From positions 11,475 through 75,474 of the forward strand of contig JAGCAM010000079.1 of assembly GCA_017652705.1 (NCBI GenBank): a DNA stretch of 64,000 bases. Direction: 5' to 3'. The position numbers and the translations under genes were made by a program. The stretch is from Kiritimatiellia bacterium. GTDB taxonomy: Bacteria > Verrucomicrobiota > Kiritimatiellia > RFP12 > UBA1067. This document shows, piece by piece, positions 7,684 to 55,674 of this stretch. Position 1 is the stretch's first letter. Each line of letters starts with the position of its first letter. A model generated the notes under the pieces. It saw only the letters and a program-made list of their open reading frames with translations. It was not told the origin of the DNA and made no database searches.

Positions 7684-7690
7684 GCCTGCA

Positions 7691-7699: not shown

Positions 7700-7991
7700 T
7701 ATTGCGGCGCTTCTTGGCGCTGATTTTGACGCCGCGGCTTTCCCCGGCCCGGCCGAAAGCGCCGAACGCAGCTCTCTGGCGGCGATTTCAAGGCGGCCGT
7801 TGAGACGGGCATAGGCTGCATCGCGGACCGCGTCGAAAGCGGTGCGCAGATTCTTTCGCCGAGCTTCGAAGGCGGCGAACCCCTCAGCCGGGCACCCCAT
7901 CGCGATTTCCGCGCGGCGAAACGTTCCCTCAGCGATTCCAACGCGCCGCTTGACGGATTTTTTCACCTGCGCATTCGCCCGCCGGCAGACG

Positions 7992-16887: not shown

Positions 16888-17679
16888 TCAGTAGACGACC
16901 GTGCAACTGACGAGATCGTGGTCGCTCAAATCGCCGGCGGGCATGAAACGCGCGTCTTTAAAGTCCATGCCTTTAATCATGATGTTGTCCAGCGGAGATT
17001 TCGGATTGTTCGAGGGGTAAGTCGGCGTGGCGTCGCCGTTGACCAGTTTGTAGCCGGCTTTCATGAATACGTCGTATTCTTCCCAGAAGCCGATGTTGAA
17101 GTCGCCGGAGATTATCACCCGCGGCTCGTTGCGGAAATCGTCGATCAGTTTCTTCATCTGGAGTTTGCGGTCGTCTTCGTGGCCGGTCTTGAAGGTGGTC
17201 CAGTCAAGGTGCGTCTGCACCGCCCAGAACGGTTCGGCGCCGGACGGCTTGAGTTTAATCGCGAGGTAGTACACCCGCTGGTCGTGTTGCGGATACTCGA
17301 CGATTTTGGTCTCGGCGATTTCGAAACCGTTCAGGCAGAATGCGTTCCACTGATAATCATGGCCCGGCCCTTTGACGCATTTGCTGTAGCGGCCGAAAAC
17401 CGCCGCTTCGGACGAGATTCCGCCGCAGGTTGTGAACGCCTCGGAGAATTCGCAGACGCCGAGCACCTGCGCACCGACCTTGTCGAGGAAATCCCTGTAC
17501 GCCCGTCCGCGTTCGCCTGCCTGTTCCGGCGGAATGGTGGAGGCTCTGGATCGTCCCCATGCAAAATGGCCGATGTTCCAGCTCGCGTAGGTGAATTCAC
17601 CGGATTTCGGAACGCTCGAACAGCCAGCCGCCGCAAGGCACATGGCGGCGAAACCGATTTTGGCGAATGCAGGCTTCAT
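16888..17679 (-). CDS. endonuclease/exonuclease/phosphatase (EEP) family lipoprotein
   Basis: 263 aa. Lipobox LAAAGCSS. EEP signatures (SWNIGHF..., GDFN, SDHDLV at the C-terminus). Confidence 0.7.
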   Translation of the reverse strand: MKPAFAKIGFAAMCLAAAGCSSVPKSGEFTYASWNIGHFAWGRSRASTIPPEQAGERGRAYRDFLDKVGAQVLGVCEFSEAFTTCGGISSEAAVFGRYSKCVKGPGHDYQWNAFCLNGFEIAETKIVEYPQHDQRVYYLAIKLKPSGAEPFWAVQTHLDWTTFKTGHEDDRKLQMKKLIDDFRNEPRVIISGDFNIGFWEEYDVFMKAGYKLVNGDATPTYPSNNPKSPLDNIMIKGMDFKDARFMPAGDLSDHDLVSCTVVY

Positions 17680-18884
17680 TTCTTCACCTCCGCACGGGGC
17701 TCGGTCTCCAGCCAGGCGTCTCTGGACGGCAGAAACTCGTTGTTCTCCGCTATGACTTGCGACACTTTGCCGTCAAGCCCGAGAAAGCGTATCGGCTTGC
17801 CCGTGCGGTTGTCCATTTTGCAGTTGCGGACCGTAAGTCTGCGCACGGTCGCTTTGGGATCGACGCCGATCGTGTCCGCCGGCAACCGGGTTTCGTTGCG
17901 GTAAACGCGCTCCACGGTGAGATTGCCGATGTCGTTCGGCCCCTCCACCTCGATGATCGGCATCCTGCGCCGGTACCAGACGTCCATCGACGGCGGGCCG
18001 AACTCCTTGGAAGCGAACACGTCGGTAATCACGATGTCGTCCATGACTCCCCGTGGTTTCTGCGGAAAGTAATGGGTGAGCCCCACCGTGTAGCAGTAGA
18101 AGTTGCCGTGGACGTTTCTGATGGTCACGCGTTTAAGTTCGGCGCCGGCGGAGAGGAGACGCGCGGCGCTGTGGCAGTATTCGCAGTAAAGTCCGTCGAT
18201 GTCGACGTCGGTTATCGGGCCCTCTTCCGGCGAGCAGATGCCGTCGTTAGCGTTGAGCGCGACCATGTCGTCGAAACAGGTTCCACGCAGGTTGGTTATC
18301 CGGAAATGGTGGCAGAAGCCGTCGAGATGGACGCCGTCGAGGTTGAGCGGTATCGGATTCCATTTTTTATAGTCGAAGGTAACGTCGTCGACGGTGACGT
18401 ACGACGCCTTGGCGAATTCGATGCCGTACGTCACTGGATTGCGTATCGTCACGCCGCGCAGAGTCACATTCTCGACGTGGCAGAAACGCATACCGATGCC
18501 GATGAACCATTCGGGGTCGAATTTTTCCGGGATCTTCGCCCGCAACTCCGGCAGATGCATGAAGTTGCCGGTCTGACTGACGTTGTCGGCGTCCCAGATG
18601 CCGCCGGTGACGGCGACGAAACGGTTGGTGCCGCCGCCGCGGTAGCATTTGTTCTCGAGCATAGGGCAGTCCGAACCCGGCGCCAGGCGCACGACAGAGA
18701 AACGGTCGAGCCGCAATTCCGTGTTCGAACCGATGCGAAGGGTTTTGGAGATGCGGTAATGCGCGGCCGGCGGCGGCAGATACACGCACGCAGCCCCTGA
18801 ATCGAGACGTTCCTGTATCGCCGCGGTGTCATCCGCGATTCCGTCGCCGACTATCGCGGCGAGCGCCAACATCCACAATGTCAT
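17676..18884 (-). CDS. right-handed beta-helix protein of the pectate-lyase superfamily (GH28-like)
   Basis: 402 aa. N-terminal GDGIADDTAAIQ motif, repetitive beta-helix rungs. RBS AGGAGAT. Stop overlaps the EEP start by 4 nt. Confidence 0.65.
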   Translation of the reverse strand: MTLWMLALAAIVGDGIADDTAAIQERLDSGAACVYLPPPAAHYRISKTLRIGSNTELRLDRFSVVRLAPGSDCPMLENKCYRGGGTNRFVAVTGGIWDADNVSQTGNFMHLPELRAKIPEKFDPEWFIGIGMRFCHVENVTLRGVTIRNPVTYGIEFAKASYVTVDDVTFDYKKWNPIPLNLDGVHLDGFCHHFRITNLRGTCFDDMVALNANDGICSPEEGPITDVDIDGLYCEYCHSAARLLSAGAELKRVTIRNVHGNFYCYTVGLTHYFPQKPRGVMDDIVITDVFASKEFGPPSMDVWYRRRMPIIEVEGPNDIGNLTVERVYRNETRLPADTIGVDPKATVRRLTVRNCKMDNRTGKPIRFLGLDGKVSQVIAENNEFLPSRDAWLETEPRAEVKK

Positions 18885-19130: not shown

Positions 19131-22100
19131 TCATCGGCCTGCGATTTTAATCGTGCCCGGCTTCAGACCGGGTGCGGTTACAGTCAGCTCAGGGGCGTCG
19201 CCGGTGCCCCGGTAGCGCCTCACCGCCACCACCGCTTTGCCGAACCACAGCGAGTGCCCTTTCAGACTCTTGAAAGACACCATCGACCGGGGATCGCCGT
19301 TGCCTACCGCCGCGATTTCACCCGGGCCTTTCAACAAGACGTCGAACTTCGCGTCCGAGACCGGCGAACGGTTGCCTTTCGAGTCCACCGCGTCAATCTG
19401 CACGAAAACCAGATCGGAGCCTTCCGCCGAATACGGATCGCGCGTGAGCCTGATCGCCTTCGGCGCACCTGCCGTTTTCATCTTCGCTTCGCCGATTTTC
19501 TCCCCGCCGCGGTACGCCACAGCTTTCAGCTCACCAGGCCTGTACGGCACGTCGAACCAACGCAGTCTGTACTTCGCGCACACTTCATAATACCTGTTGG
19601 TGAGCGCAGGGTTGCGTTCCACCACCCCCTTGCGGCGGCGGCCGAGCGATCTGCCGTTGAGAAAAAGTTCCGCCTCGTCGCCTGATGTGTAGACGTAGAC
19701 AGGCACTTTGGTCCCTTTATGATCATTCCAGTTCCAGTGCGGAAGAATGTGCACAGTCTCCGCCTTTTTGTTCCAGTGCGAGCGGTAGAGATGCCAGCGG
19801 TCTTTTGGAATGGCGCAGATGTCGGCGGCGCCGAAGTAGGAACTGCGCGAAGTGTCGGCGACGGTGAAGCTGCGGCCGGCCGCCTTGACATAGTGGCTGC
19901 CAAACTCGCTGGCGCCGAGGAACCAGAGTGTGTAGGGGGTGGGCTCGCCAATGTAGTCGATGCCCGACCAGACAAATTCGCCGCAAACGTAGCGGTCGCG
20001 TTCCATCCGGTCGAATTCGACGTCGGCGATGTCGCCCCAGGTCGCGGCGATCTGGTCGTAGCCGTCGACTTTCCAGTTTTTGACGTCGGCGCGGAACCAT
20101 TCTCCGTGCTCGGTGTTGTTGGTGTTGGACCACCCCTCGCGTTCTTCGTTGCCGGCGAACGGAACCCGGTAGAAGCCGTAGTCGGAGAACGCGCTCGCGG
20201 ATTCCGAATAGAACAGCGGCATCGCCGGGTTGCGCGCGTGCATGTGGCGGTAGCTGCCGCCGTAGTTCCAGCCGTTGAGGTCGAGTCCGTCGAGATCGCC
20301 TTTTTCGACGGCCTTTACGTAGCAGCAGCCAATGCCGACCGGACGGGTGGAGTCTTCGGAGAGAACCGCCTTGCGGAAACGGTCGCAGCGTTCGCGGGAG
20401 GTGCCCTGGGAATATTCCTCGCAGTTGAAATAGATTTCATTGCCGAGCGACCAGGTGAACACGCAGGGATGGTTGCGGTCGCGGCGGACGAACGCCTTAA
20501 GATTGCGCTCGACGTATTCTTCGAGATTCTCCCCGGGGAGCCGCCCGGCGGTGCCGTCCCATTTGTCGAAACATTCATCCCAGACTAGGATGCCAAGTTC
20601 GTCGCAGAGATCGAGCAACTGCGGGGCGGGGCAGTTGTGCGAGGTGCGTACGGCGTTCACGCCCATGTCGCGCATGCAGAGAAGCTGGCGCTTCGCGGCG
20701 TCGCGGTCGAACGCCATGCCGAGCGGCCCCAGATCGGAATGGAGGTTGACGCCGTGAATCTGCAGGCGGCGTCCGTTGAGAAACAGTCCGTTGGTGGTTA
20801 CGGAAACGGAGCGCACCCCGTAGCGGAACTTTTCACCGGCGACGGCGTATTCGTAGAGATAAGGGTCGTCCACGTCCCAGAGACGTGGTTTGAGAATTTT
20901 GAACGAGGCGGACTTTGGACCCGAAAGTGTGCGCCAGCTGACGTTGACGGTCGCCTCGGCGGCGGATATTTTCGGAGTGGTGATCGCCACCGAGCCGGGG
21001 ATGGCGTGACCGTCGCCGCGGGTCACGAGGCGAACGCTGCGGTAAATGCCGCCGCCGGGGTACCAGCGCGATTTGTGGTCGGTCGTGTCGGCGGAGACTT
21101 CAAGACTGTTTTCACCGTTGACGACAAGAGCGGACACATCGAGGATGAAGGATGCGTAGCCGTAATCCCACCCGCCGGCGTCTTTGCCGTTGACCTTGAC
21201 TTTCGGGCGGGCCATCACTCCGTCGAATTCAAGGTAGACCCGCTCGCCCGGCTTGCCGGACTTGCGCCAGACGAAGCTGCGTCGGTAGTCGCCTTTGCCG
21301 CACCACGACAGCTTGCCGGTGGCGTAGTCGTTGGTGTGGTTGAACGGCCCCGCTATCGCCCAATCATGGGGAACCCGCACCTTTGACCAAGCGGAGGAGC
21401 CGCCGCGGCGGAATTCCCAGGCGTCACCGTCGAGAGAGATGGATCGGAACGCCGAGTCGACGTTTTCCCTGGCGAAAGCGGAGAGGTCGGGTTCACCCCA
21501 CAGCGGAACGTAATTGCGGTCTCCGAGAGTTACCGCGAAGGAGGATATCTCCTCGAAACCGAGGAGGCGGTAGTATTCCACGTCGGCGGCGACGACGTCC
21601 TTCGCCTGGCGGAAAAGTTTCACGGGAGATGTCCAGTGGGAGTACAGGGAATTGTCGAACCAGTATTCGAGAACGCGAGAACCGGCGGAGCCGAACTTTT
21701 CAATCAGGGCTTTAAGGGGCTTGGTCTCGCCGTTGTTCTGGTCGGCGAGGGGACGGCCGAGATCGCGTTTGATGGGGGCGTATTCAAGGAACACGCCTTT
21801 GACCGGTTTCACTTTCTCCGGCGGGTTGATGGCGTCGGCGTAGGCAAGGTAGCAGAGTTCGGCGTCGGGTATGAACTTGCGCAATTCGGTCACGATGGCG
21901 TTGGCGAAAATCAGCTGCTGGTCGCTGGCGGAGAATCCGCGGCATTTTTCGCATTTGCACACGCCGCCGTGCACGTCGTCAAGCCACAGACAGTAGCGGC
22001 GGTTGCCGCCGTAGAGGGCCTTGGCGAGTTCGACCGCGCGTTTCCCCGCAATGTTCATGGCTTCGGGGTTGGAGAAGCAGAAGTTCTTGTCCCTGCAGCG

Positions 22101-24380
22101 GGCGCCCTTCTCGTCCATGCGGAAATATTCGGGGTGAACGTCGAAAAGGTTGCGCGGCAGCAGCCAGCTGGCGGCGTGGATTTCATAGCCGATGTCGATG
22201 CCGAGGGCTTTGGCGCGGTCGATGAGGGCGCGGTAGCCGGGCTCTTTCAGTCTGGCGAGTGTTTTATCGAGCGCGACTTCGGCCTGGCCGCCGCCGCCGG
22301 GATGGATGGAAAGATTGTGGAGACCGAGATTCACCGCGCGGTCCACCCAGCGGTCGGAGAGTTCGTCGGTGCCGATTACGAGGGATGTTTTAAGCGCCCC
22401 GGCCGGCGGAGCGGCCGGCTTTTTTTCACGGAACCAGACCTGCATGTCGTTGCCGGGCTGGCGGTGGTCCCACGCGAAGTACGGTATCAGTTTCAGCCCG
22501 TTGGAAGCTTTGAGCGCGGGGAAGGTCTTGTCGCCGATCACGATGGTGTCGTCGGTGAAAGTGGCGTCTTCGGGAAGAACGGCGTCGTAGGCCGCGCCGC
22601 CGTTGTCGCAGCCTTCGGCGCAGTAGAGCATGGGGCCGCGTTCGACGGCGAGACGGCCGAGGTCGTCGACGACGGCGCGGTGGGCGCGGATACGCTTGAC
22701 CGGCATGGGGAAATTGACTTCGACTTTGTCGCCGGCCTTCCATTTTCTGTCGATGTCGATGTAGCCGTCTTTGCCCGGTGCGGGGTCAAGAGCGGCGCCG
22801 TTCACCGAGAGAGTGATTTCCTTGACGCTTGCGGGCACGGTCTGGGTGTACAGGTCGCCGGGCACCGGTTCACCTTTCGCCCAGCCGGGAACGCGGAGTT
22901 TTAGCGTGAACCGCTTTTCGGCGGCCGGGCTGACGGCCAGCGTTGCGCGGCCGTTCCACGGATATCCCGTGTCGCATTTGAACTTGACCCCTTCCACCTC
23001 GGCTTCGCCCTGCATGACGAGGTTCCAGAATATGTTCGCGCCGTCGGTCGCCCACGCGAAGGACGGTATCTGGGGGATGAAGCGGACGTCATTCACCGGG
23101 CAGCAGCTGCAGCCGAACCACTTCGAACGTCTGTAACCTCCTTTGCAGGCGAGCGGGTTGGGGTAGAAGTACTCGTCGCCGGTGAGTGACACGCCGGAGA
23201 GGAATCCGTTGTAGATGACCCGCTCGAGTATATCGACGTATTTGGATTCGCCGGAAAAGCGGAACATACGTTCGTTCCACAGGGCGTTGGCGATCGCGGC
23301 GCAGGTTTCCAGATAGGTCACGCGGTAGTCGTTGGGCAGCAGATAGTCGCGCTCGAACGCCTCGCCGCGGGGGGTTCCGCCGACGCCGCCGGTGAGGTGC
23401 AGCTTGCGACCAGAAACGTTGAGCCAGATGGCGGAAATCGCGTCGAGGTACGCCTTGTCGCCGGTGAGGGCGGCGACGTCGGCGACACCGCAGTACAGGT
23501 AGCCGGCGCGCACAGCGTGGCCGACCGCCTCGCGCTGGAGGACGACGGGCATGTGATCCTGGATGCCCGCGCCCGGGGCGACGATGGGGTCGACCGGTTC
23601 ACCGCCGGGGCCGACCGGCCGCCCGTCTTCGAGAGACCTGCCGCGGCCGCGCATTTCAATGAAGTGGCGCGCGAGGTTGAGATAACGCTTCCTGCCGGTC
23701 ACCCGGTAGAGCTTGGCGAGGGCGAGCTCGATTTCCTCATGGCCGGGCGCGTCTTTGAGCTGGGTCGGGTCGGGCCCGAACACGCGGCAGAAAAGATCGG
23801 CGGATTTTACGGCGACGTCGAGGAAATTGCGCTTGCCGGTGGCCCGGAACCACGCGCAGGCGGCTTCGATCATGTGCCCGTTGTTGTAAAGTTCGTGGCT
23901 GGAGCCGATGTTGGACCAGCGAACGGGGCCCATCATGCCGCTGCTGCCGCCGCCTTTGCTGAAGTGCCAGTGGCCGAGCGTTCTGGCGGTGTAGAGGTAG
24001 CCGTCTAATTCCTGCGCTTTGGCGAACTGACCGATAAGCCAGTCGCAGTATTTTTCAAGTTCGGGGTCGGGGTGGTTGGCGAGCACGTAGGCCGCCCCTT
24101 CCACCACCTTGAACACGTCGGAATCGTCGAAGGGAATTCCGCCGAACTTGCCGGCGCGGGCGGCGGCGTTGGTGAAGTTGGCGATGCGCGGCGTCTCGTT
24201 GCATTTGTCGAAACAGTTTTTGAGGGTGGAAAGACGGTTCGTCTCCAGCCGGTCGTACCAGAAGCCGCCGGTGACTCTGACCTTGGTCATGTCGGCGGAG
24301 CGGATCGGGTAGTCGTTGGCGGCGGCGGCCGCAGCGGCGGCAACGAACGCTGCGACGGCGACAGAGAGTTTCTTTTTCAT
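19131..24380 (-). CDS. 1749-aa secreted multi-domain glycoside hydrolase: GH127-like (beta-L-arabinofuranosidase fold) + DUF4838-like + GH2
   Basis: Signal peptide MKKKLSVAVAAFVAAAAAAAA. The N-terminal ~650 aa carry the GH127 ExC (YLETCAAI) and CC (FGCSCCPVN) zinc/catalytic motifs. Residues ~660-960 carry the DUF4838-like core (FRM...FCFSNP...WLDDVHGGVCKCEKCRGF). The C-terminal ~790 aa are GH2 (VRVPHDWAIAGPFN sugar-binding domain; TIM barrel NHPCVFTWSLGNE). Confidence 0.8.
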   Translation of the reverse strand: MKKKLSVAVAAFVAAAAAAAANDYPIRSADMTKVRVTGGFWYDRLETNRLSTLKNCFDKCNETPRIANFTNAAARAGKFGGIPFDDSDVFKVVEGAAYVLANHPDPELEKYCDWLIGQFAKAQELDGYLYTARTLGHWHFSKGGGSSGMMGPVRWSNIGSSHELYNNGHMIEAACAWFRATGKRNFLDVAVKSADLFCRVFGPDPTQLKDAPGHEEIELALAKLYRVTGRKRYLNLARHFIEMRGRGRSLEDGRPVGPGGEPVDPIVAPGAGIQDHMPVVLQREAVGHAVRAGYLYCGVADVAALTGDKAYLDAISAIWLNVSGRKLHLTGGVGGTPRGEAFERDYLLPNDYRVTYLETCAAIANALWNERMFRFSGESKYVDILERVIYNGFLSGVSLTGDEYFYPNPLACKGGYRRSKWFGCSCCPVNDVRFIPQIPSFAWATDGANIFWNLVMQGEAEVEGVKFKCDTGYPWNGRATLAVSPAAEKRFTLKLRVPGWAKGEPVPGDLYTQTVPASVKEITLSVNGAALDPAPGKDGYIDIDRKWKAGDKVEVNFPMPVKRIRAHRAVVDDLGRLAVERGPMLYCAEGCDNGGAAYDAVLPEDATFTDDTIVIGDKTFPALKASNGLKLIPYFAWDHRQPGNDMQVWFREKKPAAPPAGALKTSLVIGTDELSDRWVDRAVNLGLHNLSIHPGGGGQAEVALDKTLARLKEPGYRALIDRAKALGIDIGYEIHAASWLLPRNLFDVHPEYFRMDEKGARCRDKNFCFSNPEAMNIAGKRAVELAKALYGGNRRYCLWLDDVHGGVCKCEKCRGFSASDQQLIFANAIVTELRKFIPDAELCYLAYADAINPPEKVKPVKGVFLEYAPIKRDLGRPLADQNNGETKPLKALIEKFGSAGSRVLEYWFDNSLYSHWTSPVKLFRQAKDVVAADVEYYRLLGFEEISSFAVTLGDRNYVPLWGEPDLSAFARENVDSAFRSISLDGDAWEFRRGGSSAWSKVRVPHDWAIAGPFNHTNDYATGKLSWCGKGDYRRSFVWRKSGKPGERVYLEFDGVMARPKVKVNGKDAGGWDYGYASFILDVSALVVNGENSLEVSADTTDHKSRWYPGGGIYRSVRLVTRGDGHAIPGSVAITTPKISAAEATVNVSWRTLSGPKSASFKILKPRLWDVDDPYLYEYAVAGEKFRYGVRSVSVTTNGLFLNGRRLQIHGVNLHSDLGPLGMAFDRDAAKRQLLCMRDMGVNAVRTSHNCPAPQLLDLCDELGILVWDECFDKWDGTAGRLPGENLEEYVERNLKAFVRRDRNHPCVFTWSLGNEIYFNCEEYSQGTSRERCDRFRKAVLSEDSTRPVGIGCCYVKAVEKGDLDGLDLNGWNYGGSYRHMHARNPAMPLFYSESASAFSDYGFYRVPFAGNEEREGWSNTNNTEHGEWFRADVKNWKVDGYDQIAATWGDIADVEFDRMERDRYVCGEFVWSGIDYIGEPTPYTLWFLGASEFGSHYVKAAGRSFTVADTSRSSYFGAADICAIPKDRWHLYRSHWNKKAETVHILPHWNWNDHKGTKVPVYVYTSGDEAELFLNGRSLGRRRKGVVERNPALTNRYYEVCAKYRLRWFDVPYRPGELKAVAYRGGEKIGEAKMKTAGAPKAIRLTRDPYSAEGSDLVFVQIDAVDSKGNRSPVSDAKFDVLLKGPGEIAAVGNGDPRSMVSFKSLKGHSLWFGKAVVAVRRYRGTGDAPELTVTAPGLKPGTIKIAGR

Positions 24381-24410
24381 TTCAGCGGTCTCCTTTTAAG
24401 GGTGAAGCTT

Positions 24411-24902
24411 TCACAGATGTTTGATGTTGATTTTGCCTGTGGCGAGTCCCGGGGCCGATGCCGTCAGGGTGGCGGGGCCTTTGCCGGTGCGCCGAAGGAT
24501 TACCAGGGCCTTGCCGTGGAAAAGACGGTTGCCGGCGACGTCCTTGACCGAGTCGTAATCGCGTGGGTCGCCGTTGCCTACCGCTTCTATGACGGCGTCG
24601 CCGCGGACCGCGAAACCGACTCGGTCGCCGGCGTCGGGAACGCGCGTACCGGCTGCGTCCGCTTTCGCGGCGGTTTTCACGCTGGCCACGCCGATCTTCC
24701 TGCCCCTGAGATAGCGGACCGCCCTGAGTTCGCCCGGTTCCCACCGCACGTCAAACCAGCGCAAACGGTAGCGGCCCATAATCTTGTAATACGGGTTGTC
24801 GCGGCCTTTCCCGTTGAACTTGGCGACGTCGCCGCAGTCGCTGTGCAGCGGATAGTCGAGGCGGAGCTTCCGTTTCATTGGCCTTATTTTGTTTTGTCGC
24901 AC
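24411..24902 (-). pseudogene. stand-alone remnant of a GH2 C-terminal domain
   Basis: 163-aa ORF. ...YYKIMGRYRLRWFDVRWEPGELRAVRY...AVGNGDPRDYDSV...ASAPGLATGKINI aligns with the last ~165 aa of the GH2 part of the giant protein (YYEVCAKYRLRWFDVPYRPGELKAVAY...AVGNGDPRSMVSF...TAPGLKPGTIKI). No catalytic domain precedes it. Confidence 0.5.
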
Positions 24903-24912: not shown

Positions 24913-27669
24913 TCATTGCTCGACGAATTTCAGTACGCCGAAGGCGTTGAGATCGCTGTTGAAATTGCCGAACCTGTTGTAAAGCCGCGAAAGTTCCCAC
25001 ACCGAACCGGGGGTGCGCTTCGACTTGTCTTTGAGCCAGGCGTCGGCGATTCTCAGCCGCGCGATGTTGCCGTTCCAGTGGATGCCGCCCTGCGTGGTCG
25101 GTATTTTCGCGTCGGCGAAGAAACCGAGGTCGCTGTACGGTATGTAGATTTCGACCGACCAGGAGTCTTTGTTGATTTTCGCCCCGCTCTTCAGCCCCTT
25201 CGGTTCCCACTTCTTGGTCTGAACCCGCAACTGGTTGACGGCGTCGATCCAGAGTTTGAAATAGACGCCTTCAAGCTCGCCGGTGGGGTCGACGAAAATT
25301 TCAAGACAGTCGTTGCCCCACCAGTCGCCGGCCGGGTGCGAAGTCTGCAGGCGGTCGGGGGTCTTCTCCATGCAGGTGATGCCGAACACCACGCCTTGCG
25401 AAGTCCATACCGCCTGCACGTAAGTCGGATATTTCGCCACGGTGTTGGTGCGGCTGCCGCTGCCGTCGATACCCGCGAGCGCGCAGGAGAGCGGCTCGGC
25501 GAGCTTCCAGCACGGGTCGGAGAGGTCGCCGTCGATTTTCGGAAGTTCGGCGGCCTTGCGCATGTGCAGGTCGGGGAAGGCCTTGTTGTTGGCGTACTCC
25601 CAGCTTTCCCTGAAAAACCGCTCGAAGGGTTTGGCGTAGTAGGCGAGACGGTTCGAGGCGGCCGCATCGTCGGCGAGAGCCCTGAACGACTCTTTGATTA
25701 TGCGTTCCATCTCCTCCACCTCGGCGCGCGGGTAGCTGATGCCGAAAACGTTTTTGCTGGTGACGCTCGGCCGCTTCCACTGCCGTGCCCACCCTTTCTC
25801 CTGCATGTCGATAAGTTTGCGCATCGGCGCGGCGGCCTTGCCGAACATCCGACTGGCGAATTCGTCGTAGACGTCTTTCGCCTCGAAGCCGGGGTTCCAC
25901 ATCGCCCGCACCCAGACGTAGGCGGAGAGCCCGAGCCGGTCGACCGGATACCCCCCGTTCAGGAAAGATCCGCAGATCACGCCCTTCATCCTGCGGTAGA
26001 ATTCAACAGCGGTGCCGCCGAAAACGTAAGGGGCGCAAGTCCGGTCGGCCGGCCAGCAGATGTAGTGCCAGTTCTGCACGGGGTTGCCGGTCGCCTTCGC
26101 CCATTGGCGCATGAGCTCCTCCTCGTGTCTGCGGGCTGATTCCTGGGCGAGCAGCGCGAGGCCCGGCATGGTGCACAGAAACGCGTCCACGTTGCCTTCG
26201 GCCGTGAGATCGAGACCTTTGGGCACGTCGCAGGTGTTGATGTAGGGAAGTATGGAAATGCGCCAGTCGGGATATTTCCGCTTCATCCATTTGGCGAGTT
26301 CCTTGGTGAAATACCCCCAGATTATCGGCGAAGCGTCGCCCGTGGGCGCGGCTGACTTGTCCACGAGTTTTTTGCAGAAATCGCAGTGGCAGACGACGGC
26401 GGCGTCGTACTGCGAAACGGTTACGGTTTTGCGCTGCACGTCGACGGGGTCGCCCATAAAGCCGCGGCGTTTGCCCTCGACCGTCAGGTTGATGTGCTCC
26501 TTGTAGGTCTGCAGCGTGCGGGGGTTGCCGTAACAGAGCATGGCGGTGCGGGCGCGTTCGCCGTTTTCGGACAGGGCGAAGATTTCCGGTCGCCCCGTCC
26601 AGCGGCTCGGCTTGTAACCGAGATTGGGGTCGACGTGCCAGTAGCTCGGGGTGTGGACCCGGTGCGATGACTGGTGGGCGTCGCCGAATTTCCAGCCGCG
26701 GTGACCCGCTGCGAATTCGGTGCGGAATTCATAGACCGGTTTGTCCGACCAGTTGAACCGTGGCAGGGCGAGACCTTCCGTTTTGATAACGAGTTCGCCG
26801 ATCTTGCGGTCGGGGTAGTACTGGCGTACGCCGAGTATCCGTTCGGCGAAGTCGTAGACGGCGTAGCCGGAGGCGGTCGCATGCGCGCCGATGAGGAAAA
26901 CGTCCCCTCCTTTGGTGAGACAGCGGAAGGCGTGTGCGCCGACGCCCCACCGGGTGTCGGGGGTGCCGGGGCGGGTGACGCCGGCTTCGCGGGCGGCGAG
27001 GGTGTCGCCGATGTAGATCGCGCCGCCGCCGGTGTAGGCGGTGTTGGTGCCGAGATGGAGAACCGGCGGCTTGGCGCCGGTCATCTTTTCGATTATTTCA
27101 GCGAGCCACACCGCTTCGCCGCGCGCTTCGGCCGCCACGATCGGCATGCGGGCGACGCCGTCGGCGACGACCACGACCGGTTCCCCGCGAGGGGCCGAGA
27201 ACGCGGTGAGCGGGGTCAGGTCTTTGGCGCGCGGATTGCCGGGCGCGAGCTGCGCTCTGGATCCGTCCTCCGCGGTGACGAAACTCCCTTTCCGTTCCGC
27301 GGCGGCGGCCGAAGTCTTGGTGAAGTAGTTGGTGGCGAGCGCGGTACGCGACGTCCGGCGGTACGCCTCGAAGAGAACTGAATACTCACCGGCCGGCAGA
27401 TCTTCGACATGCAGCGAAAGCGCATTGCGCCCGACCCGCAAGGGAACCGACTGCGTGCGGAGCATCCTGCCGGACGCGTCGCGCAGCGTCATTTTCACGC
27501 TGTCGGCGGTGCAGACCGGAACCTTTGCCTCGAAGGCGACGTAGACGTCGTCCTTGCCGAGCGTCTGCCGGTCGCCCGAGGCGCCGGTAAATCCGACGGC
27601 CGGCGCCGCGGCGGCGGCGGCGGAAAGGATTGCCGCGGCGGCGAAAAGAACCTGTGCTGTCTTTGTCAT
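24913..27669 (-). CDS. secreted DUF4838-like (GH20-like) putative glycoside hydrolase with C-terminal CBM9-like domain
   Basis: 918 aa, signal peptide. Core motifs GNPRTLQTYKE, CHCDFCK, NWHYICWP. C-terminal KIDGDLSDPCWKLAEP...DCLEIFVDP...WSVEIYIPY matches the CBM9/DOMON-like fold. Confidence 0.6.
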   Translation of the reverse strand: MTKTAQVLFAAAAILSAAAAAAPAVGFTGASGDRQTLGKDDVYVAFEAKVPVCTADSVKMTLRDASGRMLRTQSVPLRVGRNALSLHVEDLPAGEYSVLFEAYRRTSRTALATNYFTKTSAAAAERKGSFVTAEDGSRAQLAPGNPRAKDLTPLTAFSAPRGEPVVVVADGVARMPIVAAEARGEAVWLAEIIEKMTGAKPPVLHLGTNTAYTGGGAIYIGDTLAAREAGVTRPGTPDTRWGVGAHAFRCLTKGGDVFLIGAHATASGYAVYDFAERILGVRQYYPDRKIGELVIKTEGLALPRFNWSDKPVYEFRTEFAAGHRGWKFGDAHQSSHRVHTPSYWHVDPNLGYKPSRWTGRPEIFALSENGERARTAMLCYGNPRTLQTYKEHINLTVEGKRRGFMGDPVDVQRKTVTVSQYDAAVVCHCDFCKKLVDKSAAPTGDASPIIWGYFTKELAKWMKRKYPDWRISILPYINTCDVPKGLDLTAEGNVDAFLCTMPGLALLAQESARRHEEELMRQWAKATGNPVQNWHYICWPADRTCAPYVFGGTAVEFYRRMKGVICGSFLNGGYPVDRLGLSAYVWVRAMWNPGFEAKDVYDEFASRMFGKAAAPMRKLIDMQEKGWARQWKRPSVTSKNVFGISYPRAEVEEMERIIKESFRALADDAAASNRLAYYAKPFERFFRESWEYANNKAFPDLHMRKAAELPKIDGDLSDPCWKLAEPLSCALAGIDGSGSRTNTVAKYPTYVQAVWTSQGVVFGITCMEKTPDRLQTSHPAGDWWGNDCLEIFVDPTGELEGVYFKLWIDAVNQLRVQTKKWEPKGLKSGAKINKDSWSVEIYIPYSDLGFFADAKIPTTQGGIHWNGNIARLRIADAWLKDKSKRTPGSVWELSRLYNRFGNFNSDLNAFGVLKFVEQ

Positions 27670-30400: not shown

Positions 30401-33400
30401 TCAGTTCTCGCGGAAGATGAACTTTGAAAAAGCTCCCGGATCGCTGTTGTAGCCGTTGCCGCGCGTATGCAGGCGGGACATCTCGGTGGTGTGCGGGGTT
30501 CGCTTGTTGAGCGGACGGATCGTCTTGTCGCCGCGGCGGAGGCGGATGAAGTTCCCCGTCCAGGACATGCCCCCTGAAGTCGTCGGGTGCACCGCGTCTT
30601 TGTAGAGCGCGATCATCGGCTTGTACGGCACGTAAAGTTCGATGCTCCACGACTTCTCGTTCTTCGCGATCGCGCAGCGGACGCCTTCCGGCCCCTGGGC
30701 CTTCTTGAAGCCGTCGTACCACTCGAACTTGCCGCTCGCGTTGATAATCACGCGGCCGAAAGCGCCGTAGTCGCCGCCGAGGTCGATCAGCGCTTCGACG
30801 CAGTCGTTGACCCAGTAGTTGCCGGTGGGGCCGTCGTTGCAGAGGTTCGCCATGTCGCTTTCGCGGCAGTCCATGCCGAACGTGACTGCGGTCGGCGTCC
30901 ACACCGCGCGTATCGACGTGCCCTCTTTCGGCGTCGTGCCCTCCTTGCGCGCGCCGGTGAACTCCTGCGCTTCGGCCAGCTTCCAGCAAGCGTCGTCGAG
31001 CTTGCCGTCGATCACGGGGTCCTGCGACACTTTCTGCATCATGAGCGGCGCAAAGGCGCTGCCGGCGGCGTATTCGGCCGATTCCTTGAAAAACTGCGTG
31101 AAGCCGCCTTTGTAGTAGGCGATGCGCTTCATGAGCAGCTCGTCGCCGGCGCAGAGCTGCTCTGCCTCGGCGAAGAGCCCCTCCATCCTCAGAACTTCCG
31201 CCCGCGGATAGGAAATCGTGTAGATGTTCCGGTTGTTGACGCGGGAGACCTTCCACTGCCGCTCCCAGCCTGTCTCCTGCAGGCGGACGATCTCGCGCAG
31301 CTGTTTCGCCGCGGGCCCGAACATGCGGTCGGCGAAGGTGTCGTAGACGGAGTCGATGTTCAGCTCGGGGTTCCACAGCAGGCGCATCCAGCAGTAGGCC
31401 GAAAGCACCAGCCGGTCTACCGGGTAACGACCGTTGAGAAAGCTGCCCGCTGTGATTTCGCGCGTGTCGCGGTAGTGGCGCTGGGCCGTCTTGGCGAAGA
31501 TAAACGGCGCCTGGCAGGTCTCCGCCGGCCAGCAGATGTAGTGCCAGTTCTGCACCGGCCGACCCGTCACCCGCGCCCAGTCGCGGATGAGTTGCTCCTG
31601 GAACTCCTTCACCGGCTTCTCCTTCAGCATGGCGAGACCGGGCATCGTGCAGAGAAACGCCTCGACGTTGCCCTCTTCGACGAAGTCCACCCCGTCGGGT
31701 ATGTCGGTCGTGTTGTGGTACGGCAGAATGACTATTTTCCAGCCGGGCAGTTCCTTCTTCGCCCACTTGGCGAGTTCTTTCGTGAAGTAGCCCCAGAGCA
31801 CGTTCGAAAAGCTCACGCGGCTTTCGGCGATGTTCTCCTGCGGGTGTCTGGCGAGTATCGCCTTGCAGTATTTGCAGTTGCAGAAAACGGCGATGTCCCA
31901 CTGCGAAACGGTGATGCACTTCGCCAGCGGTGCGGTGATGTCGCCGCGTGGCGAACCGCTGGCGATTTCGGCGAGGATGCGCTCCTTGTACGTTTCGAGG
32001 GTGCGGGGGTTGCCGTAGCAGAGCAGCGGCATCGTCGCCCGTTTGCCGTCGTCGGTCAGCGCGAAGATTTCCGGCCGCGTGAACATGAAGTTGAGGTTGG
32101 TGTTCCTGTTCCACGCCCCGGGCGCATGCACGTGGTGCTCTCCGCAGTGGCTGTCGCCGTTTTTCCACACCCGGCACCATTCGTTGCCTTCGTACGGCCA
32201 GAGGTCGCGCTTGGCGAAAACCGGCTTGTCGGAGTAACTGAACGCCGGCAGCGAAAGCCCGTATGTTTTCACCACAGTGCGGCCGCCGTTCTTGACGTCC
32301 CAGTATTCGCGCACGGCGAGGGCGCGCTCCGCGAAGTCGGTCGCCGCGTAATCGCACCGCGCGCCGCAAAGGTAGACCGACCCGTCTTTCACGCACACCT
32401 TGAACCCGTGCGCGTCGACGCCCCAGCGCTCGCGCTGGTAGGTGGCGAGCCCCGCGCGGCGCGTCGCCGCTACATCGCCTATGTAGATCGCCGGGGCGTT
32501 GGTGACCGGTCTGCCGCCGCACTCGCGCACGATCCTGAGCCTGGCGCCGGTCATGTCCTCGATCACCGAGGCGATGAACTGCGCGGCGAACTGCCCGTCA
32601 CGCGAATCTTCGCAGACGATGTCCATCGCCGGTATCGAGCCGAGAGCGACGGTCGCGCCGGCGCCGCCCAGCCAGCGGAAATCTTTCACCGGCGTCAGAT
32701 CGCGCGCGTTCACGTTCATCGGGGCGCGCTGCGCATGATAAACCCTGCGGCGGACGTCGTCGACGCGCACCACCGCCCCGCCGCGCTTGCCCGATTCCTC
32801 CGCGGCGGCCATGAGCGCGAAGATCTCGTCGGTTTCCTCGGAAGGGAAAGGCTTCACCCCGGTTTTGAAAAACTTGAGTATCTCCTCGAGCATCGGCGCG
32901 TAACCCTCGTATCCCCCGAGATCGACCACCCCCTTGTCGGCGGTGAACGCCTGGCCGGAGTAATTCCACATCCCGGGCCCGCGCATCATGCGCAGACCGC
33001 CGAATCTGCCGTCGCGCCATCTGACGGCCACGAAATCGTTGCTTTCGTTCGAAAAGCAGCTGACCGATTCGGCACCGACCCCCATCACCGCCACGAGCGG
33101 CTCGAAACCGTGGATGCCGTACCAGGTGAACCGCGAGTGGGTGCGCTCAAGCGGCGAGGGAGCAGCGTAGTTGACGCCGCGCACCACGCCCAGCTCCCCT
33201 TTGCGCGCCGCCTGCACCTTCGAAGTCCACCGCAGCGCGGAACAGCTGAAGAAATTGGCGTTGACCCGGCGCGCCTCGTCGAATATCCGGGTGGCGGACT
33301 GGTAGTCGCTGGCGAGGGGCTTGTCGATGAACACCCGCTTGCCGCTCGCGAAAACCTCCCGCGCCTGGGCCAGATGCTCGCGGCCGTCCTGCGTTTCAAG

Positions 33401-33721
33401 CAGCACCACGTCGCACTTCGCCAGCACGTCTTTGACGCTCGGCTCCATTTCAACGCCCATCTCCTTCATCTGCCCGATGTATTTCGGGTAGTTGTTCGTC
33501 ACCGCGGGTATCGTGCGCGAGCCGTACTTGTACGCGGCCACGACCCGGAAATCTTTGAATATCTCGCGGTCGCGCTTGACGTTGATGTGCCTGGTGAACT
33601 CGGTGGCGTGCGACGTGTCGACGCCGATGACGCCGATCTTGATTTCGCCGGCCGTCGGGGCGGCCGCGGCCGCCGCCGCCGCGAGAAGTGCGATTGAGCG
33701 AAGTGGTCTGTCCATTTTCAT
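30401..33721 (-). CDS. fusion protein: Gfo/Idh/MocA oxidoreductase domain + DUF4838-like domain + CBM9-like domain (secreted)
   Basis: Start chosen at the ATG of MKMDRPLRSIALLAAAAAAAAPTAG (signal peptide; GGAG RBS). Residues ~30-340 carry Rossmann IGVIGVDTSHA and VFIDKPLA (EKP-type) motifs. The rest parallels the 24913..27669 protein (CNCKYCK, NWHYICWP, C-terminal VIDGKLDDACWKLAEA). Confidence 0.7.
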   Translation of the reverse strand: MKMDRPLRSIALLAAAAAAAAPTAGEIKIGVIGVDTSHATEFTRHINVKRDREIFKDFRVVAAYKYGSRTIPAVTNNYPKYIGQMKEMGVEMEPSVKDVLAKCDVVLLETQDGREHLAQAREVFASGKRVFIDKPLASDYQSATRIFDEARRVNANFFSCSALRWTSKVQAARKGELGVVRGVNYAAPSPLERTHSRFTWYGIHGFEPLVAVMGVGAESVSCFSNESNDFVAVRWRDGRFGGLRMMRGPGMWNYSGQAFTADKGVVDLGGYEGYAPMLEEILKFFKTGVKPFPSEETDEIFALMAAAEESGKRGGAVVRVDDVRRRVYHAQRAPMNVNARDLTPVKDFRWLGGAGATVALGSIPAMDIVCEDSRDGQFAAQFIASVIEDMTGARLRIVRECGGRPVTNAPAIYIGDVAATRRAGLATYQRERWGVDAHGFKVCVKDGSVYLCGARCDYAATDFAERALAVREYWDVKNGGRTVVKTYGLSLPAFSYSDKPVFAKRDLWPYEGNEWCRVWKNGDSHCGEHHVHAPGAWNRNTNLNFMFTRPEIFALTDDGKRATMPLLCYGNPRTLETYKERILAEIASGSPRGDITAPLAKCITVSQWDIAVFCNCKYCKAILARHPQENIAESRVSFSNVLWGYFTKELAKWAKKELPGWKIVILPYHNTTDIPDGVDFVEEGNVEAFLCTMPGLAMLKEKPVKEFQEQLIRDWARVTGRPVQNWHYICWPAETCQAPFIFAKTAQRHYRDTREITAGSFLNGRYPVDRLVLSAYCWMRLLWNPELNIDSVYDTFADRMFGPAAKQLREIVRLQETGWERQWKVSRVNNRNIYTISYPRAEVLRMEGLFAEAEQLCAGDELLMKRIAYYKGGFTQFFKESAEYAAGSAFAPLMMQKVSQDPVIDGKLDDACWKLAEAQEFTGARKEGTTPKEGTSIRAVWTPTAVTFGMDCRESDMANLCNDGPTGNYWVNDCVEALIDLGGDYGAFGRVIINASGKFEWYDGFKKAQGPEGVRCAIAKNEKSWSIELYVPYKPMIALYKDAVHPTTSGGMSWTGNFIRLRRGDKTIRPLNKRTPHTTEMSRLHTRGNGYNSDPGAFSKFIFREN

Positions 33722-33876
33722 GACTCCGGTTAGTGGTTGTGGCTGTTCGATTCTCAAAGTCCAGAGCTGCAGACTCTGCCGTTCTGAAAGATATTTGTCG
33801 CGGAAACCGCGGGTGTGAAGCCAGCCTTCGGCGATGTTGGGCTTTTCAACATACCGCTCTCATCGCCGCACCGCCG

Positions 33877-55667: not shown

Positions 55668-55674
55668 GAAGTTA

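What the first reader, a model, noticed from the sequence alone, without database searches (positions are those of the whole stretch)
19131..24380. 1749-aa triple-catalytic fusion GH127-like + DUF4838-like + GH2
Three potentially catalytic modules sit in one secreted polypeptide. The beta-L-arabinofuranosidase-type GH127 domain has intact ExC/CC zinc-site motifs. A DUF4838-like domain follows. A full GH2 (sugar-binding, Ig-like, TIM barrel with NHPCVFTWSLGNE, C-terminal domains) ends the protein. Such an architecture suggests sequential attack on one complex substrate, for example arabinogalactan or extensin-type beta-L-Araf plus beta-Gal decorations. It is unusual enough to be a useful hook for assigning DUF4838 a substrate.
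Basis: partly seen in the sequence, partly recalled or inferred. Interest (0 to 1): 0.6.

Follow-up and report, generated by a model that had tools for sequence, protein, structure and literature searches.

The report
Three-enzyme sugar-cutting fusion protein
A gut bacterium from a ruminant encodes one exported protein that joins three intact sugar-cleaving enzymes; this is a real but fairly ordinary kind of gene fusion, and its main value is as a clue to the unknown job of the middle enzyme.

Summary
Window 19131-24380 (-) is one uninterrupted 1749-aa ORF with a ribosome-binding site and a signal-peptide-like N-terminus. It encodes GH127 (aa 23-651), a 310-aa DUF4838-type TIM barrel (aa 663-972) and a GH2 (aa 984-1749). 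All known or family-invariant catalytic residues are present.

The fusion is not an assembly artefact. Three assemblies give the same protein, and both 11-aa linkers replace exactly a stop codon, spacer and signal peptide. A separate metagenome holds a 1101-aa DUF4838-GH2 protein that is 70% identical and colinear across the second junction. The GH127 junction is known only from this organism, a Kiritimatiellae MAG from a ruminant gut.

The interpretation needs correcting. DUF4838 is no longer an orphan: it is the catalytic domain of CAZy GH163 and GH185. The module here belongs instead to a distinct, uncharacterised short family of about 307 aa. That family is only remotely related to canonical DUF4838. 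Elsewhere it is fused to GH106, GH43, a GH42-like domain, CBM9 and aldose 1-epimerase.

GH127 fused to other glycosidases is common, so the architecture is a new combination rather than a new principle. The substrate is inferred, not shown: most likely decorated plant arabinogalactan or pectin.

The parts
24390..24395 (-). Shine-Dalgarno-like AAGGAG, 9 nt upstream of the ATG
   Evidence: Read from the sequence.
24315..24380 (-). Signal-peptide-like N-terminus, aa 1-22 (MKKKLSVAVAAFVAAAAAAAAN): three Lys, a 17-residue hydrophobic run, then an Ala-rich end
   Evidence: Translation. Judged by inspection; no signal-peptide predictor was available.
22428..24314 (-). GH127 module (aa 23-651): catalytic (alpha/alpha)6, middle and C-terminal beta domains. 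Glu340 is the acid/base. Glu358, Cys360, Cys426 and Cys427 are the Zn site, and Cys426 is the nucleophile.
   Evidence: Pfam. PDB 6ex6 matches at E 6e-164 over aa 23-650. The alignment to HypBA1 (3wre) places E340, E358, C360, C426 and C427 on E322, E338, C340, C417 and C418.
22395..22427 (-). Linker 1 (aa 652-662, EKKPAAPPAGA). It is encoded by GAA AAA AAG followed by a 7-bp all-GC hairpin.
   Evidence: GH127 ends at its natural C-terminus (VWFRE; compare the ends of 6ex6 and 4qjy). The next module starts where the mature homologues start (LKTSL...).
21465..22394 (-). Short DUF4838-type (beta/alpha)8 barrel (aa 663-972). Conserved motifs: HPGGG at 693, WLDD at 799 (Asp801, Asp802), CKCEKC at 808-813, LEYAP at 865, EYWFDNS at 905.
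   Evidence: Pfam PF16126. There are 583 homologues, mostly stand-alone proteins of 305-340 aa that cover 92-97% of the module. Every invariant column is retained. The AF2 model has pLDDT 88 and is an 8-stranded barrel. Foldseek matches GH20, GH42, GH156 and GH84.
21432..21464 (-). Linker 2 (aa 973-983, NVDSAFRSISL)
   Evidence: Stand-alone short DUF4838 proteins end just after PD(V/L)SAF. The stand-alone GH2 P0242 starts, after its signal peptide, at LSLDGPWEF. The junction is conserved in P0241.
19131..21431 (-). GH2 module (aa 984-1749, plus stop): sugar-binding domain, shortened Ig-like domain, TIM barrel (Glu1315 acid/base in WSLGNE, Glu1468 nucleophile in GEFVWSG), DUF4982 and the C5 domain
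   Evidence: Pfam. PDB 5t98 (E 1e-132), 9bey and 4ypj, with both catalytic motifs aligned. NCBIfam GalB scores 623 bits, below the equivalog cutoff of 900.
24411..24878 (-). Context: 155-aa remnant of another GH2 gene (end of DUF4982 plus the C5 domain, with an internal deletion), 30 nt upstream of the fusion gene
   Evidence: Pfam. It is called as a gene. It is only 41% identical to the C-terminus of the fusion's GH2.
24913..27669 (-). Context: canonical long DUF4838 protein (918 aa). Its orthologue lies next to a stand-alone short DUF4838 gene in locus L009.
   Evidence: Pfam. It is 68% identical over its full length to the 929-aa protein of L009.
17676..18884 (-). Context: 402-aa beta-helix protein with weak pectate-lyase-fold and GH28 matches, directly downstream on the same strand
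   Evidence: Pfam (both hits below cutoff). No PDB relative by sequence.

Best explanation
This is a genuine exported multi-catalytic glycoside hydrolase of a ruminant-gut Kiritimatiellae bacterium. Three independent active sites are tethered by two linkers of about 11 aa.

- Module 1 (GH127) is a cysteine glycosidase. A Zn-bound Cys426 acts as nucleophile and Glu340 as acid/base. It is expected to remove terminal beta-L-arabinofuranose.
- Module 3 (GH2, the DUF4982-bearing type) uses Glu1315 and Glu1468. It most resembles exo-beta-galactosidases.
- Module 2 is a complete 310-aa TIM barrel of an uncharacterised 'short DUF4838' family. I infer that it is a retaining exo-glycosidase. Its catalytic acid(s) would be Asp801/Asp802 at the end of strand 4, beside a CxCxxC metal knuckle, with a conserved acidic residue (Glu905) at the end of strand 7. 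Its specificity is unknown.

The gene was probably built in two steps: a short DUF4838-GH2 fusion first, as still seen in P0241, and then GH127 added at the N-terminus. Each step deleted a stop codon, an intergenic spacer and the downstream signal peptide.

The likely benefit is that exo-enzymes trimming different caps from the same heavily decorated plant glycan (arabinogalactan-protein or pectic side chains) are exported together and kept close together.

Shown: the ORF, the domains, the catalytic residues, the reproducibility of the sequence, and the existence of the di-fusion. Inferred: activity of module 2, the substrates, the order of the fusion steps and the synergy.
For: ORF and domains.

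Catalytic residues.

Completeness and conservation of the middle module:
- Homologues of 305-340 aa cover 92-97% of the module.
- All invariant columns are kept.
- The barrel model is confident (pLDDT 88) and its closest folds are glycosidases.

Reality of the fusion:
- The identical protein is found in an NCBI MAG contig, an ENA scaffold and a Logan contig. The DNA is identical except for one synonymous SNP.
- GC3 is uniform across the modules and the neighbouring genes.
- P0241, from a different metagenome, is 70% identical and colinear over aa 663-1749, including junction 2.
- A stand-alone GH2 (P0242) and stand-alone short DUF4838 proteins bracket the linkers exactly.

Carbohydrate context:
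- The neighbours are a GH3, two long DUF4838 proteins and a GH28-like protein, all on the same strand.
- The short module is fused elsewhere to GH106, GH43+CBM9, a GH42-like domain, CBM9, aldose 1-epimerase and a pectate-lyase-fold domain.
- The closest characterised GH127, BT3674, acts on arabinogalactan (PMC10850190).

Habitat: the XIEF21-1 sample series corresponds to the ruminant gut RGIG MAG set.
Against: - No activity was measured for any module.
- Junction 1 (GH127 to DUF4838) is known only from this organism, and probably from one sample series. It contains an A7 run.
- The characterised relatives of DUF4838 (GH163, GH185) act on GlcNAc glycans rather than plant glycans. That favours a rival substrate.
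- In Clostridia the stand-alone short proteins lack signal peptides and have no conserved carbohydrate-gene neighbours. Half of them also hit the xylose-isomerase-like TIM family weakly. A glycosidase role for module 2 is therefore not certain.
- GH2 specificity cannot be read from the sequence; the GalB equivalog cutoff is not reached.
Confidence: 0.8

Rival explanations
1. The enzyme targets GlcNAc-containing glycans such as LacNAc-type antennae of N- or O-glycans. GH2 would remove beta-Gal, and module 2 would act as a GH20/GH84-like substrate-assisted beta-N-acetylhexosaminidase using the Asp801-Asp802 pair. GH127 would be a later add-on for a different cap.
For: - Both characterised DUF4838 families are beta-GlcNAc-ases with substrate-assisted catalysis and share the CxCxxC motif after strand 4 (PMC10570127 and PMC11776370).
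- The top Foldseek hits are GH20 (9fyn, StrH) and GH84 O-GlcNAcases.
- An invariant DD pair sits at the end of strand 4, as in GH84 (from my own knowledge).
- The DUF4838-GH2 pair is the older, conserved fusion.
Against: - The short family is only remotely related to canonical DUF4838 (108 columns, probability 85%).
- Its other fusion partners (GH106 rhamnosidase, GH43, CBM9, a pectate-lyase fold, GH127) point to plant glycans.
- GH42, which uses a classical Glu/Glu mechanism, matches the fold about as well.
Confidence: 0.2
2. The middle module is not a glycosidase. It could be a xylose-isomerase-like TIM-barrel enzyme (isomerase, epimerase or deglycosidase-like), or a structural or binding spacer between GH127 and GH2.
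For: - Eleven of 22 family members give sub-threshold hits to AP_endonuc_2.
- C-glycoside deglycosidase structures appear among the Foldseek hits at E about 4e-5.
- The family is fused to aldose 1-epimerase and to a metallo-beta-lactamase domain.
- Cytoplasmic Clostridia members sit in housekeeping contexts and are sometimes fused to GIY-YIG.
Against: - All members pass the PF16126 threshold.
- The best fold matches are glycosidases.
- Conserved acidic residues sit at the ends of strands 4 and 7, the canonical glycosidase positions.
- Strict conservation of about 50 residues argues against a mere spacer.
Confidence: 0.12
3. The GH127 junction is an artefact. A one-base indel error in the A7 run, or a chimeric join, would have merged a separate GH127 gene with the DUF4838-GH2 gene.
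For: - The tri-fusion is a singleton cluster.
- No junction-spanning hit appears among the best 150 of 1.84 billion representatives, nor in the JGI scan.
- An A7 homopolymer lies exactly in linker 1.
Against: - Three assemblies, including an independent Logan assembly, agree base for base at the junction. The window differs from the other two by a SNP elsewhere, so there are at least two distinct consensus sequences.
- With a shifted frame, the downstream module would have no start codon and no signal peptide. The zero frame, by contrast, joins the natural GH127 C-terminus to the mature N-terminus of the next module.
- Composition is uniform across the modules.
Confidence: 0.05
4. The gene makes two products by dnaX-like programmed -1 frameshifting at the in-phase A AAA AAG in linker 1: the full tri-enzyme, and a free GH127 ending 10 codons later.
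For: - The heptamer is in the correct phase and sits exactly at the domain boundary.
- A 7-bp all-GC hairpin lies directly downstream.
- The -1 frame reaches TAA after 10 codons.
Against: - The hairpin starts 0 nt after the heptamer, whereas the canonical spacer is 5-9 nt.
- There is no SD-like element upstream.
- AAAAAAG occurs at the chance frequency in the window (7 found, 6.9 expected).
- Local folding is not unusual (z = 0.36).
- The site has no counterpart elsewhere, because the junction is unique.
Confidence: 0.04

Closest known systems
BT3674-type GH127 beta-L-arabinofuranosidase (PDB 6ex6; the link between this entry and BT3674 is from my memory) and HypBA1 of Bifidobacterium longum (3wkw, 3wre)
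   Same: Full three-domain GH127 with all catalytic and Zn-binding residues. E is 6e-164 to 6ex6 and 9e-97 to HypBA1. BT3674 works together with exo-galactanases on larch arabinogalactan (PMC10850190).
   Different: Those enzymes are single-module proteins. Here GH127 is the N-terminal third of a 1749-aa chain.
GH2-GH127 two-enzyme proteins of Planctomycetes and relatives (P0023, P0025, P0029, P0051, about 1536 aa; P0032, P0050, P0052, about 1820-1875 aa)
   Same: GH127 and GH2 are on one polypeptide.
   Different: The order is reversed, with GH2 at the N-terminus. Their GH2 is only 27-33% identical to this one, and they have no DUF4838 module. They are independent fusion events.
P0241, a 1101-aa signal peptide-short DUF4838-GH2 protein from metagenome ERZ27247116
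   Same: 70% identical and colinear with aa 663-1749. It has the same linker 2 and the same shortened Ig-like domain.
   Different: It lacks GH127. A signal peptide sits where linker 1 is here, and the upstream gene is a metallophosphoesterase.
BT0996-type beta-D-glucuronidase/beta-L-arabinofuranosidase (NCBIfam NF049877). That it is a GH2 plus GH137 enzyme of rhamnogalacturonan-II breakdown is from my own knowledge (Ndeh et al. 2017).
   Same: A GH2 and a beta-L-arabinofuranosidase are fused to attack one complex plant glycan. The GH2 part of the query hits this model weakly (75 bits).
   Different: The arabinofuranosidase family differs (GH137, not GH127), there is no DUF4838, and the score is far below the equivalog cutoff of 1800.
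CAZy GH163 (BT1035) and GH185 (Sp_0475), the characterised DUF4838 enzymes
   Same: PF16126 signature, TIM barrel distantly related to GH20, and a CxCxxC motif after strand 4.
   Different: Those are much larger proteins in which the domain has further parts: an F5/8 module in BT1035, and residues out to R633 in Sp_0475. The module here is a 310-aa barrel that matches only profile positions 55-224. It has a DD pair where a canonical long DUF4838 protein has YD. It aligns to that long DUF4838 protein over only 108 columns.

Membership tests
GH127 (clan GH-P cysteine glycosidases) | GH127 catalytic (alpha/alpha)6 domain plus the middle and C-terminal beta domains | tested here: met
   PF07944 330 bits, PF20736 74 bits, PF20737 73 bits, all above cutoff. 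6ex6 aligns over aa 23-650.
GH127 (clan GH-P cysteine glycosidases) | Zn site Glu-x-Cys plus Cys-Cys, with a Cys nucleophile and a Glu acid/base (HypBA1 E338, C340, C417, C418, E322) | tested here: met
   E358, C360, C426, C427 and E340 align to these residues in 3wre. The residue roles come from the literature (PMC10850190) and from my own knowledge.
GH127 (clan GH-P cysteine glycosidases) | beta-L-arabinofuranosidase activity (some members hydrolyse aceric acid instead) | not testable with these tools
   The NCBIfam aceric-acid-hydrolase model scores 377 bits against a cutoff of 950, so the protein is not that equivalog. Its specificity has not been measured.
GH2 | Sugar-binding domain, Ig-like domain and TIM barrel in that order, with further C-terminal domains in this subtype | tested here: met
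   PF02837, PF02836, PF16355 and PF18565 are above cutoff. The Ig-like domain (PF00703) scores only 19 bits against a cutoff of 23 and is about 40 aa shorter than in 5t98. The same is true of homologues P0241 and P0242.
GH2 | Acid/base Glu in the NE motif after strand 4, and a nucleophile Glu after strand 7 | tested here: met
   WSLGNE (E1315) aligns to WSIGNE of 5t98, and GEFVWSG (E1468) aligns to GEFIWTG.
GH2 | Equivalog of a named beta-galactosidase (NCBIfam GalB or GalA) | tested here: not met
   GalB scores 623 bits and GalA 454 bits, both below the cutoff of 900. The protein is beta-galactosidase-like, and its specificity is unproven.
Pfam DUF4838 (PF16126) | Score above the gathering threshold | tested here: met
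   54.7-58.5 bits against a cutoff of 26.6, but only profile positions 55-225 of 325 are matched.
CAZy GH163 (BT1035 type) | Full-length N-terminal DUF4838 catalytic domain followed by an F5/8-type module, and sequence similarity to BT1035 | tested here: not met
   There is no F5/8 domain, and only the central third of the profile is matched. The relation to a canonical long DUF4838 protein is remote. No direct comparison was possible because the BT1035 sequence could not be fetched.
CAZy GH185 (Sp_0475 type) | Active-site set Q174, H227, D309, Y436 and the sulfate-binding R633; CxCxxC after strand 4; no signal peptide | tested here: inconclusive
   CxCxxC is present (C808, C810, C813), as are an Asp after strand 4 and conserved His and Tyr residues. 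However, the module has only 310 residues, so it cannot hold a region equivalent to R633.
'Short DUF4838' family (about 307 aa, uncharacterised; defined here) | End-to-end alignment and retention of the invariant residues (HPxGG, YExHA, WxDD, CxCxxC, LEYAP, (E/D)YWxDNS) | tested here: met
   45-61% identity over 92-97% of the module. All 48 invariant columns of the 22-sequence alignment are kept.
dnaX-type programmed -1 frameshift site | In-phase X XXY YYZ heptamer, a stimulatory structure 5-9 nt downstream, and an upstream SD-like element | tested here: not met
   The heptamer A AAA AAG is in phase, but the hairpin spacer is 0 nt and there is no SD-like element. The local fold is not unusual (z = 0.36).

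The most novel reading that the evidence does not exclude
The middle module represents a new glycoside hydrolase family. It would be the 'short DUF4838' 310-aa barrel with a DD pair and a CxCxxC knuckle, distinct from GH163 and GH185. Its specificity would be for a cap on plant arabinogalactan or pectin side chains rather than for GlcNAc. This tri-fusion, the DUF4838-GH2 di-fusion, and the fusions to GH106, GH43, CBM9 and aldose 1-epimerase together act as Rosetta stones that narrow the candidate substrates enough to test directly.
Probability: 0.4. Interest if true: 0.55.

Novelty: new variant of a known kind. Interest (0 to 1): 0.35.

Why it matters
Multi-catalytic glycosidases are common in PVC-group bacteria, so the fusion itself teaches little that is new.

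Its value is practical. It ties an uncharacterised TIM-barrel family to a small set of plant-glycan exo-enzymes. That family has at least 583 relatives in the word-based search and is frequent in ruminant and other gut Clostridia MAGs. The partner enzymes act on beta-L-Araf, beta-Gal, alpha-L-Rha and GH43-type substrates.

This gives a short, testable list of substrates for a possible new CAZy family. It also corrects the belief that DUF4838 as a whole is unassigned.

Tried and rejected
- **Conserved neighbours.** I looked for conserved neighbours of the stand-alone short DUF4838 genes in 80 GTDB loci, mostly Clostridia. No gene cluster recurs beside them. The only apparent clusters are antisense ORF artefacts.
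- **Sequence search of solved structures.** Searches with the module and with the family profile found nothing significant.
- **Junction-spanning searches.** A query of aa 561-1120 against 1.84 billion cluster representatives gave no hit covering two modules. This is weak negative evidence, because fused proteins can be hidden under single-domain representatives; neither the query protein nor P0241 was listed. The JGI metagenome scan with a junction-spanning query found only five loci, all with the short module alone.
- **GH2 remnant as a recent duplicate.** Rejected. It is 41% identical to the C-terminus of the fusion's GH2.
- **Fusion elsewhere to the downstream neighbour.** I tested whether P0363 (short DUF4838 plus a pectate-lyase-fold domain) is fused to a homologue of the downstream 402-aa gene. 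Only a generic N-terminal motif is shared (E 0.028).
- **Foreign origin of a module.** Rejected on composition. GC3 is 0.77-0.83 in all modules and in the housekeeping neighbours.
- **Literature.** Searches for BuGH2A and for GH127/GH2 fusion papers added nothing.
Full report

Yes. Window 19131-24380 on the minus strand is a single ORF of 1749 codons starting at ATG. An AAGGAG lies 9 nt upstream of the start. The N-terminus, MKKKLSVAVAAFVAAAAAAAAN, looks like a signal peptide. I judged this by inspection, since no predictor was available.

Pfam places these domains, all above their gathering scores:
- GH127 catalytic, middle and C-terminal domains at aa 33-651.
- DUF4838 (PF16126) at aa 727-895.
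- GH2 N-terminal domain (998-1120), TIM barrel (1192-1348), DUF4982 (1556-1629) and C-terminal domain 5 (1646-1745).

The GH2 Ig-like domain is detected only below threshold.

**2. Are the three modules intact?**

*GH127.* The closest solved structure is 6ex6 (E 6e-164, aligned over aa 23-650). In the alignment to HypBA1 (3wre, native numbering), query E340, E358, C360, C426 and C427 fall on E322 (acid/base), E338, C340, C417 (nucleophile) and C418. The Zn-dependent cysteine-nucleophile chemistry of clan GH-P is described in PMC10850190.

*GH2.* The best structures are 5t98, 9bey and 4ypj (E 1e-132 to 1e-107). WSLGNE (E1315) and GEFVWSG (E1468) align to the acid/base and nucleophile motifs. 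About 40 residues of Ig-like domain 2 of 5t98 have no counterpart here. The same short domain occurs in the 70%-identical P0241 and in the 59%-identical stand-alone GH2 P0242, so it is a trait of the clade. NCBIfam calls the module GalB- or GalA-like but below the equivalog cutoff (623 and 454 bits against 900). 'Beta-galactosidase-like' is as far as sequence can go.

*Middle module.* The Pfam hit covers only profile positions 55-224 of 325, which could have meant a truncated relic. It does not. A search with aa 653-980 found 583 relatives. The best 120 are almost all proteins of 305-340 aa that align over 92-97% of the query at 45-61% identity. In a 22-sequence alignment every invariant column is retained in the fusion:
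- HPxGG (aa 693)
- YExHA
- WxDD (D801, D802)
- CxCxxC (C808, C810, C813)
- LEYAP (aa 865)
- (E/D)YWxDNS (aa 905)

An AlphaFold2 model built on that alignment is a confident eight-stranded barrel (mean pLDDT 88, pTM 0.84). The DD pair sits at the end of strand 4, and the conserved acidic residue of (E/D)YW sits at the end of strand 7.

Foldseek against the PDB returns glycosidase barrels first: GH20 (lacto-N-biosidase 9fyn, StrH), GH42, GH156 and GH84 O-GlcNAcases. TM-scores are 0.42-0.51. Sequence searches of the PDB find nothing.

**3. What DUF4838 is now known to be**

PF16126 is the catalytic domain of two CAZy families (PMC10570127):
- GH163, founded by BT1035, an endo-beta-N-acetylglucosaminidase acting on complex N-glycans.
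- GH185, founded by Sp_0475, an exo 6-sulfo-beta-GlcNAcase with a substrate-assisted mechanism.

A CxCxxC motif after strand 4 is shared by these families and resembles the Zn cluster of GH42 (PMC11776370).

The module here is not a canonical DUF4838, however. Profile-profile comparison with the neighbouring 918-aa canonical DUF4838 protein aligns only 108 columns around strands 3-5 (probability 85%). The canonical protein has YD where the short family has DD. I treat the short proteins as a separate, uncharacterised family.

**4. Is the fusion real?**

The exact protein is P0001, which NCBI names 'MAG: DUF4838 domain-containing protein [Kiritimatiellae bacterium]'. It is a singleton cluster.

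It is encoded on three assemblies: the NCBI MAG contig (101 kb), an ENA scaffold (XIEF21-1_SAMN15830161, 54.6 kb) and an independent Logan assembly of SRR12529136 (7.1 kb). Both fetched loci match the window base for base except for one synonymous SNP at 19683. All three give an identical protein.

GC3 is 0.77-0.83 in all modules and in the housekeeping neighbours.

The junctions are clean:
- GH127 runs to its natural end (VWFRE; compare the ends of 6ex6 and 4qjy). Eleven residues follow (EKKPAAPPAGA). Then the chain continues at LKTSL, exactly where the mature homologues begin after their signal peptides.
- The short module ends at PDLSAF, as the stand-alone proteins do. Eleven residues follow. 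Then comes SLDGDAWEF, the first mature residues of the stand-alone GH2 P0242.

P0241 comes from a different metagenome and assembler (ERZ27247116). It is a 1101-aa signal peptide-short DUF4838-GH2 protein, 70% identical and colinear with aa 663-1749. Junction 2 is therefore confirmed independently.

Junction 1 is not confirmed independently. No other protein joining GH127 to this module appeared:
- among the best 120 hits to the whole protein;
- in an exhaustive search of 1.84 billion cluster representatives with a junction-spanning query, which is weak evidence because neither the query nor P0241 was itself listed;
- in a JGI metagenome scan.

Linker 1 contains an A7 run, the one place where an indel error could create a false junction. 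Against that, the three assemblies agree. A shifted frame would also leave the downstream modules with no start codon and no signal peptide. I put the artefact at about 5%.

**5. Evolutionary context**

Locus L009 comes from a related organism. It carries an orthologue of the neighbouring 918-aa DUF4838 protein (68% identity over the full length). That gene is followed by a GH30 gene and then by a stand-alone short DUF4838 gene (P0121, 61% identical to the module).

In the window, the place of the GH30 is taken by a 155-aa remnant of another GH2. That is a sign of local deletions.

Together with P0241, this suggests a two-step history: short DUF4838 fused to GH2 first, then GH127 added. This order is an inference. 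Loss of modules in the other lineages is not excluded.

GH127 is a frequent fusion partner in general. In one search it is joined to GH2, GH51, GH43/32, GH95-like, GH5, sulfatase, aldose epimerase or a second GH127. The other GH127-GH2 proteins have the reverse order and a GH2 only 27-33% identical to this one, so they arose independently.

**6. What does it do?**

*Shown:* three modules, each with a complete catalytic apparatus, on one exported chain.

The plant-glycan reading rests on several points:
- The closest characterised GH127 is BT3674, which acts with galactanases on larch arabinogalactan. The link between 6ex6 and BT3674 is from my memory.
- The same-strand neighbours are a GH3, two long DUF4838 proteins and a GH28-like beta-helix protein.
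- The habitat is a ruminant gut. The XIEF21-1 sample names correspond to the RGIG ruminant MAG set.
- The short module's other fusion partners, found among longer hits of the exhaustive search, are GH106 alpha-L-rhamnosidase, GH43 plus CBM9, a GH42-like domain, CBM9 alone, aldose 1-epimerase and a pectate-lyase-fold domain.

The main rival is a LacNAc-type substrate, with GH2 removing Gal and the barrel removing GlcNAc. It draws on the GlcNAc-ase activity of GH163 and GH185 and on the GH20 and GH84 fold matches.

A smaller rival is that the barrel is not a glycosidase at all. Half of its relatives give sub-threshold hits to the xylose-isomerase-like TIM family. The cytoplasmic Clostridia members have no conserved carbohydrate-gene neighbours.

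**7. Verdict**

The finding is real and the fusion is biological. Its kind, a multi-catalytic glycosidase in a PVC-group bacterium, is well known. The gene is already deposited, with a generic name.

What is new is the particular triple combination. More usefully, its middle part belongs to an uncharacterised short TIM-barrel family with a set of informative fusions. Interest is modest (0.35). Interest would rise to about 0.55 if the module proves to found a new glycoside hydrolase family acting on plant glycans.

Noticed in passing
window 22395-22427 (- strand): Linker 1 is encoded by GAA AAA AAG. This is an in-phase dnaX-type A AAA AAG heptamer. It is followed at once by a 7-bp all-GC hairpin, which the scan lists as a plus-strand terminator-like site with a T7 tail. 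The -1 frame stops after 10 codons, which would give a free GH127. The spacer is too short, the heptamer is not enriched in the window, and the fold is not unusual, so frameshifting is unlikely.
   Followed up: partly
window 24411-24878 (- strand): A 155-aa ORF that is the C-terminal remnant of a different GH2: the end of DUF4982 plus the C5 domain, with an internal deletion. It is 41% identical to the fusion's GH2. It sits between the 918-aa DUF4838 gene and the fusion gene and is probably a pseudogene fragment left by a deletion.
   Followed up: partly
window 30401-33757 (- strand): A protein of 1104-1118 aa that fuses a GFO/IDH/MocA NAD-binding oxidoreductase domain to a full canonical DUF4838 domain. 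This is another unusual pairing: an oxidoreductase with a GH163/GH185-type barrel.
   Followed up: no
window 7992-9929, 24913-27669, 30401-33757 and 21465-22394 (all - strand): Four DUF4838-type domains lie within 64 kb, three canonical and one short. The family is expanded in this genome.
   Followed up: no
window 2395-3351, 33877-35232, 41186-42700, 43876-44868, 59814-61373, 61433-62482: There are several GFO/IDH/MocA oxidoreductases, two proteins with 3-keto-disaccharide hydrolase domains, and a TAT-signal xylose-isomerase-like TIM protein. Together they suggest oxidative (3-keto) glycoside cleavage pathways scattered through the region.
   Followed up: no
window 46361-51379 and 51420-55709 (- strand): Two very large adjacent ORFs of 1672 and 1429 aa. 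The first has only a weak N-terminal CBM9-like hit and the second has no Pfam hit at all.
   Followed up: no
loci L007 and L008 (genes at 6666-6944 and 7001-7927); proteins P0163, P0195, P0214, P0235, P0240: In gut Clostridia the stand-alone short DUF4838 gene is sometimes fused to, or directly preceded by, a small GIY-YIG domain gene. I have no explanation for this.
   Followed up: no
proteins P0122, P0125, P0127 (C-terminal ~190 aa); locus L003 10001-11518: The closest secreted relatives of the middle module carry a C-terminal extension. In related family members (P0383, P0395, P0442) the corresponding extra domain scores as CBM9-like. L003 comes from a close relative of the window's organism (ProRS 87% identical).
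   Followed up: partly
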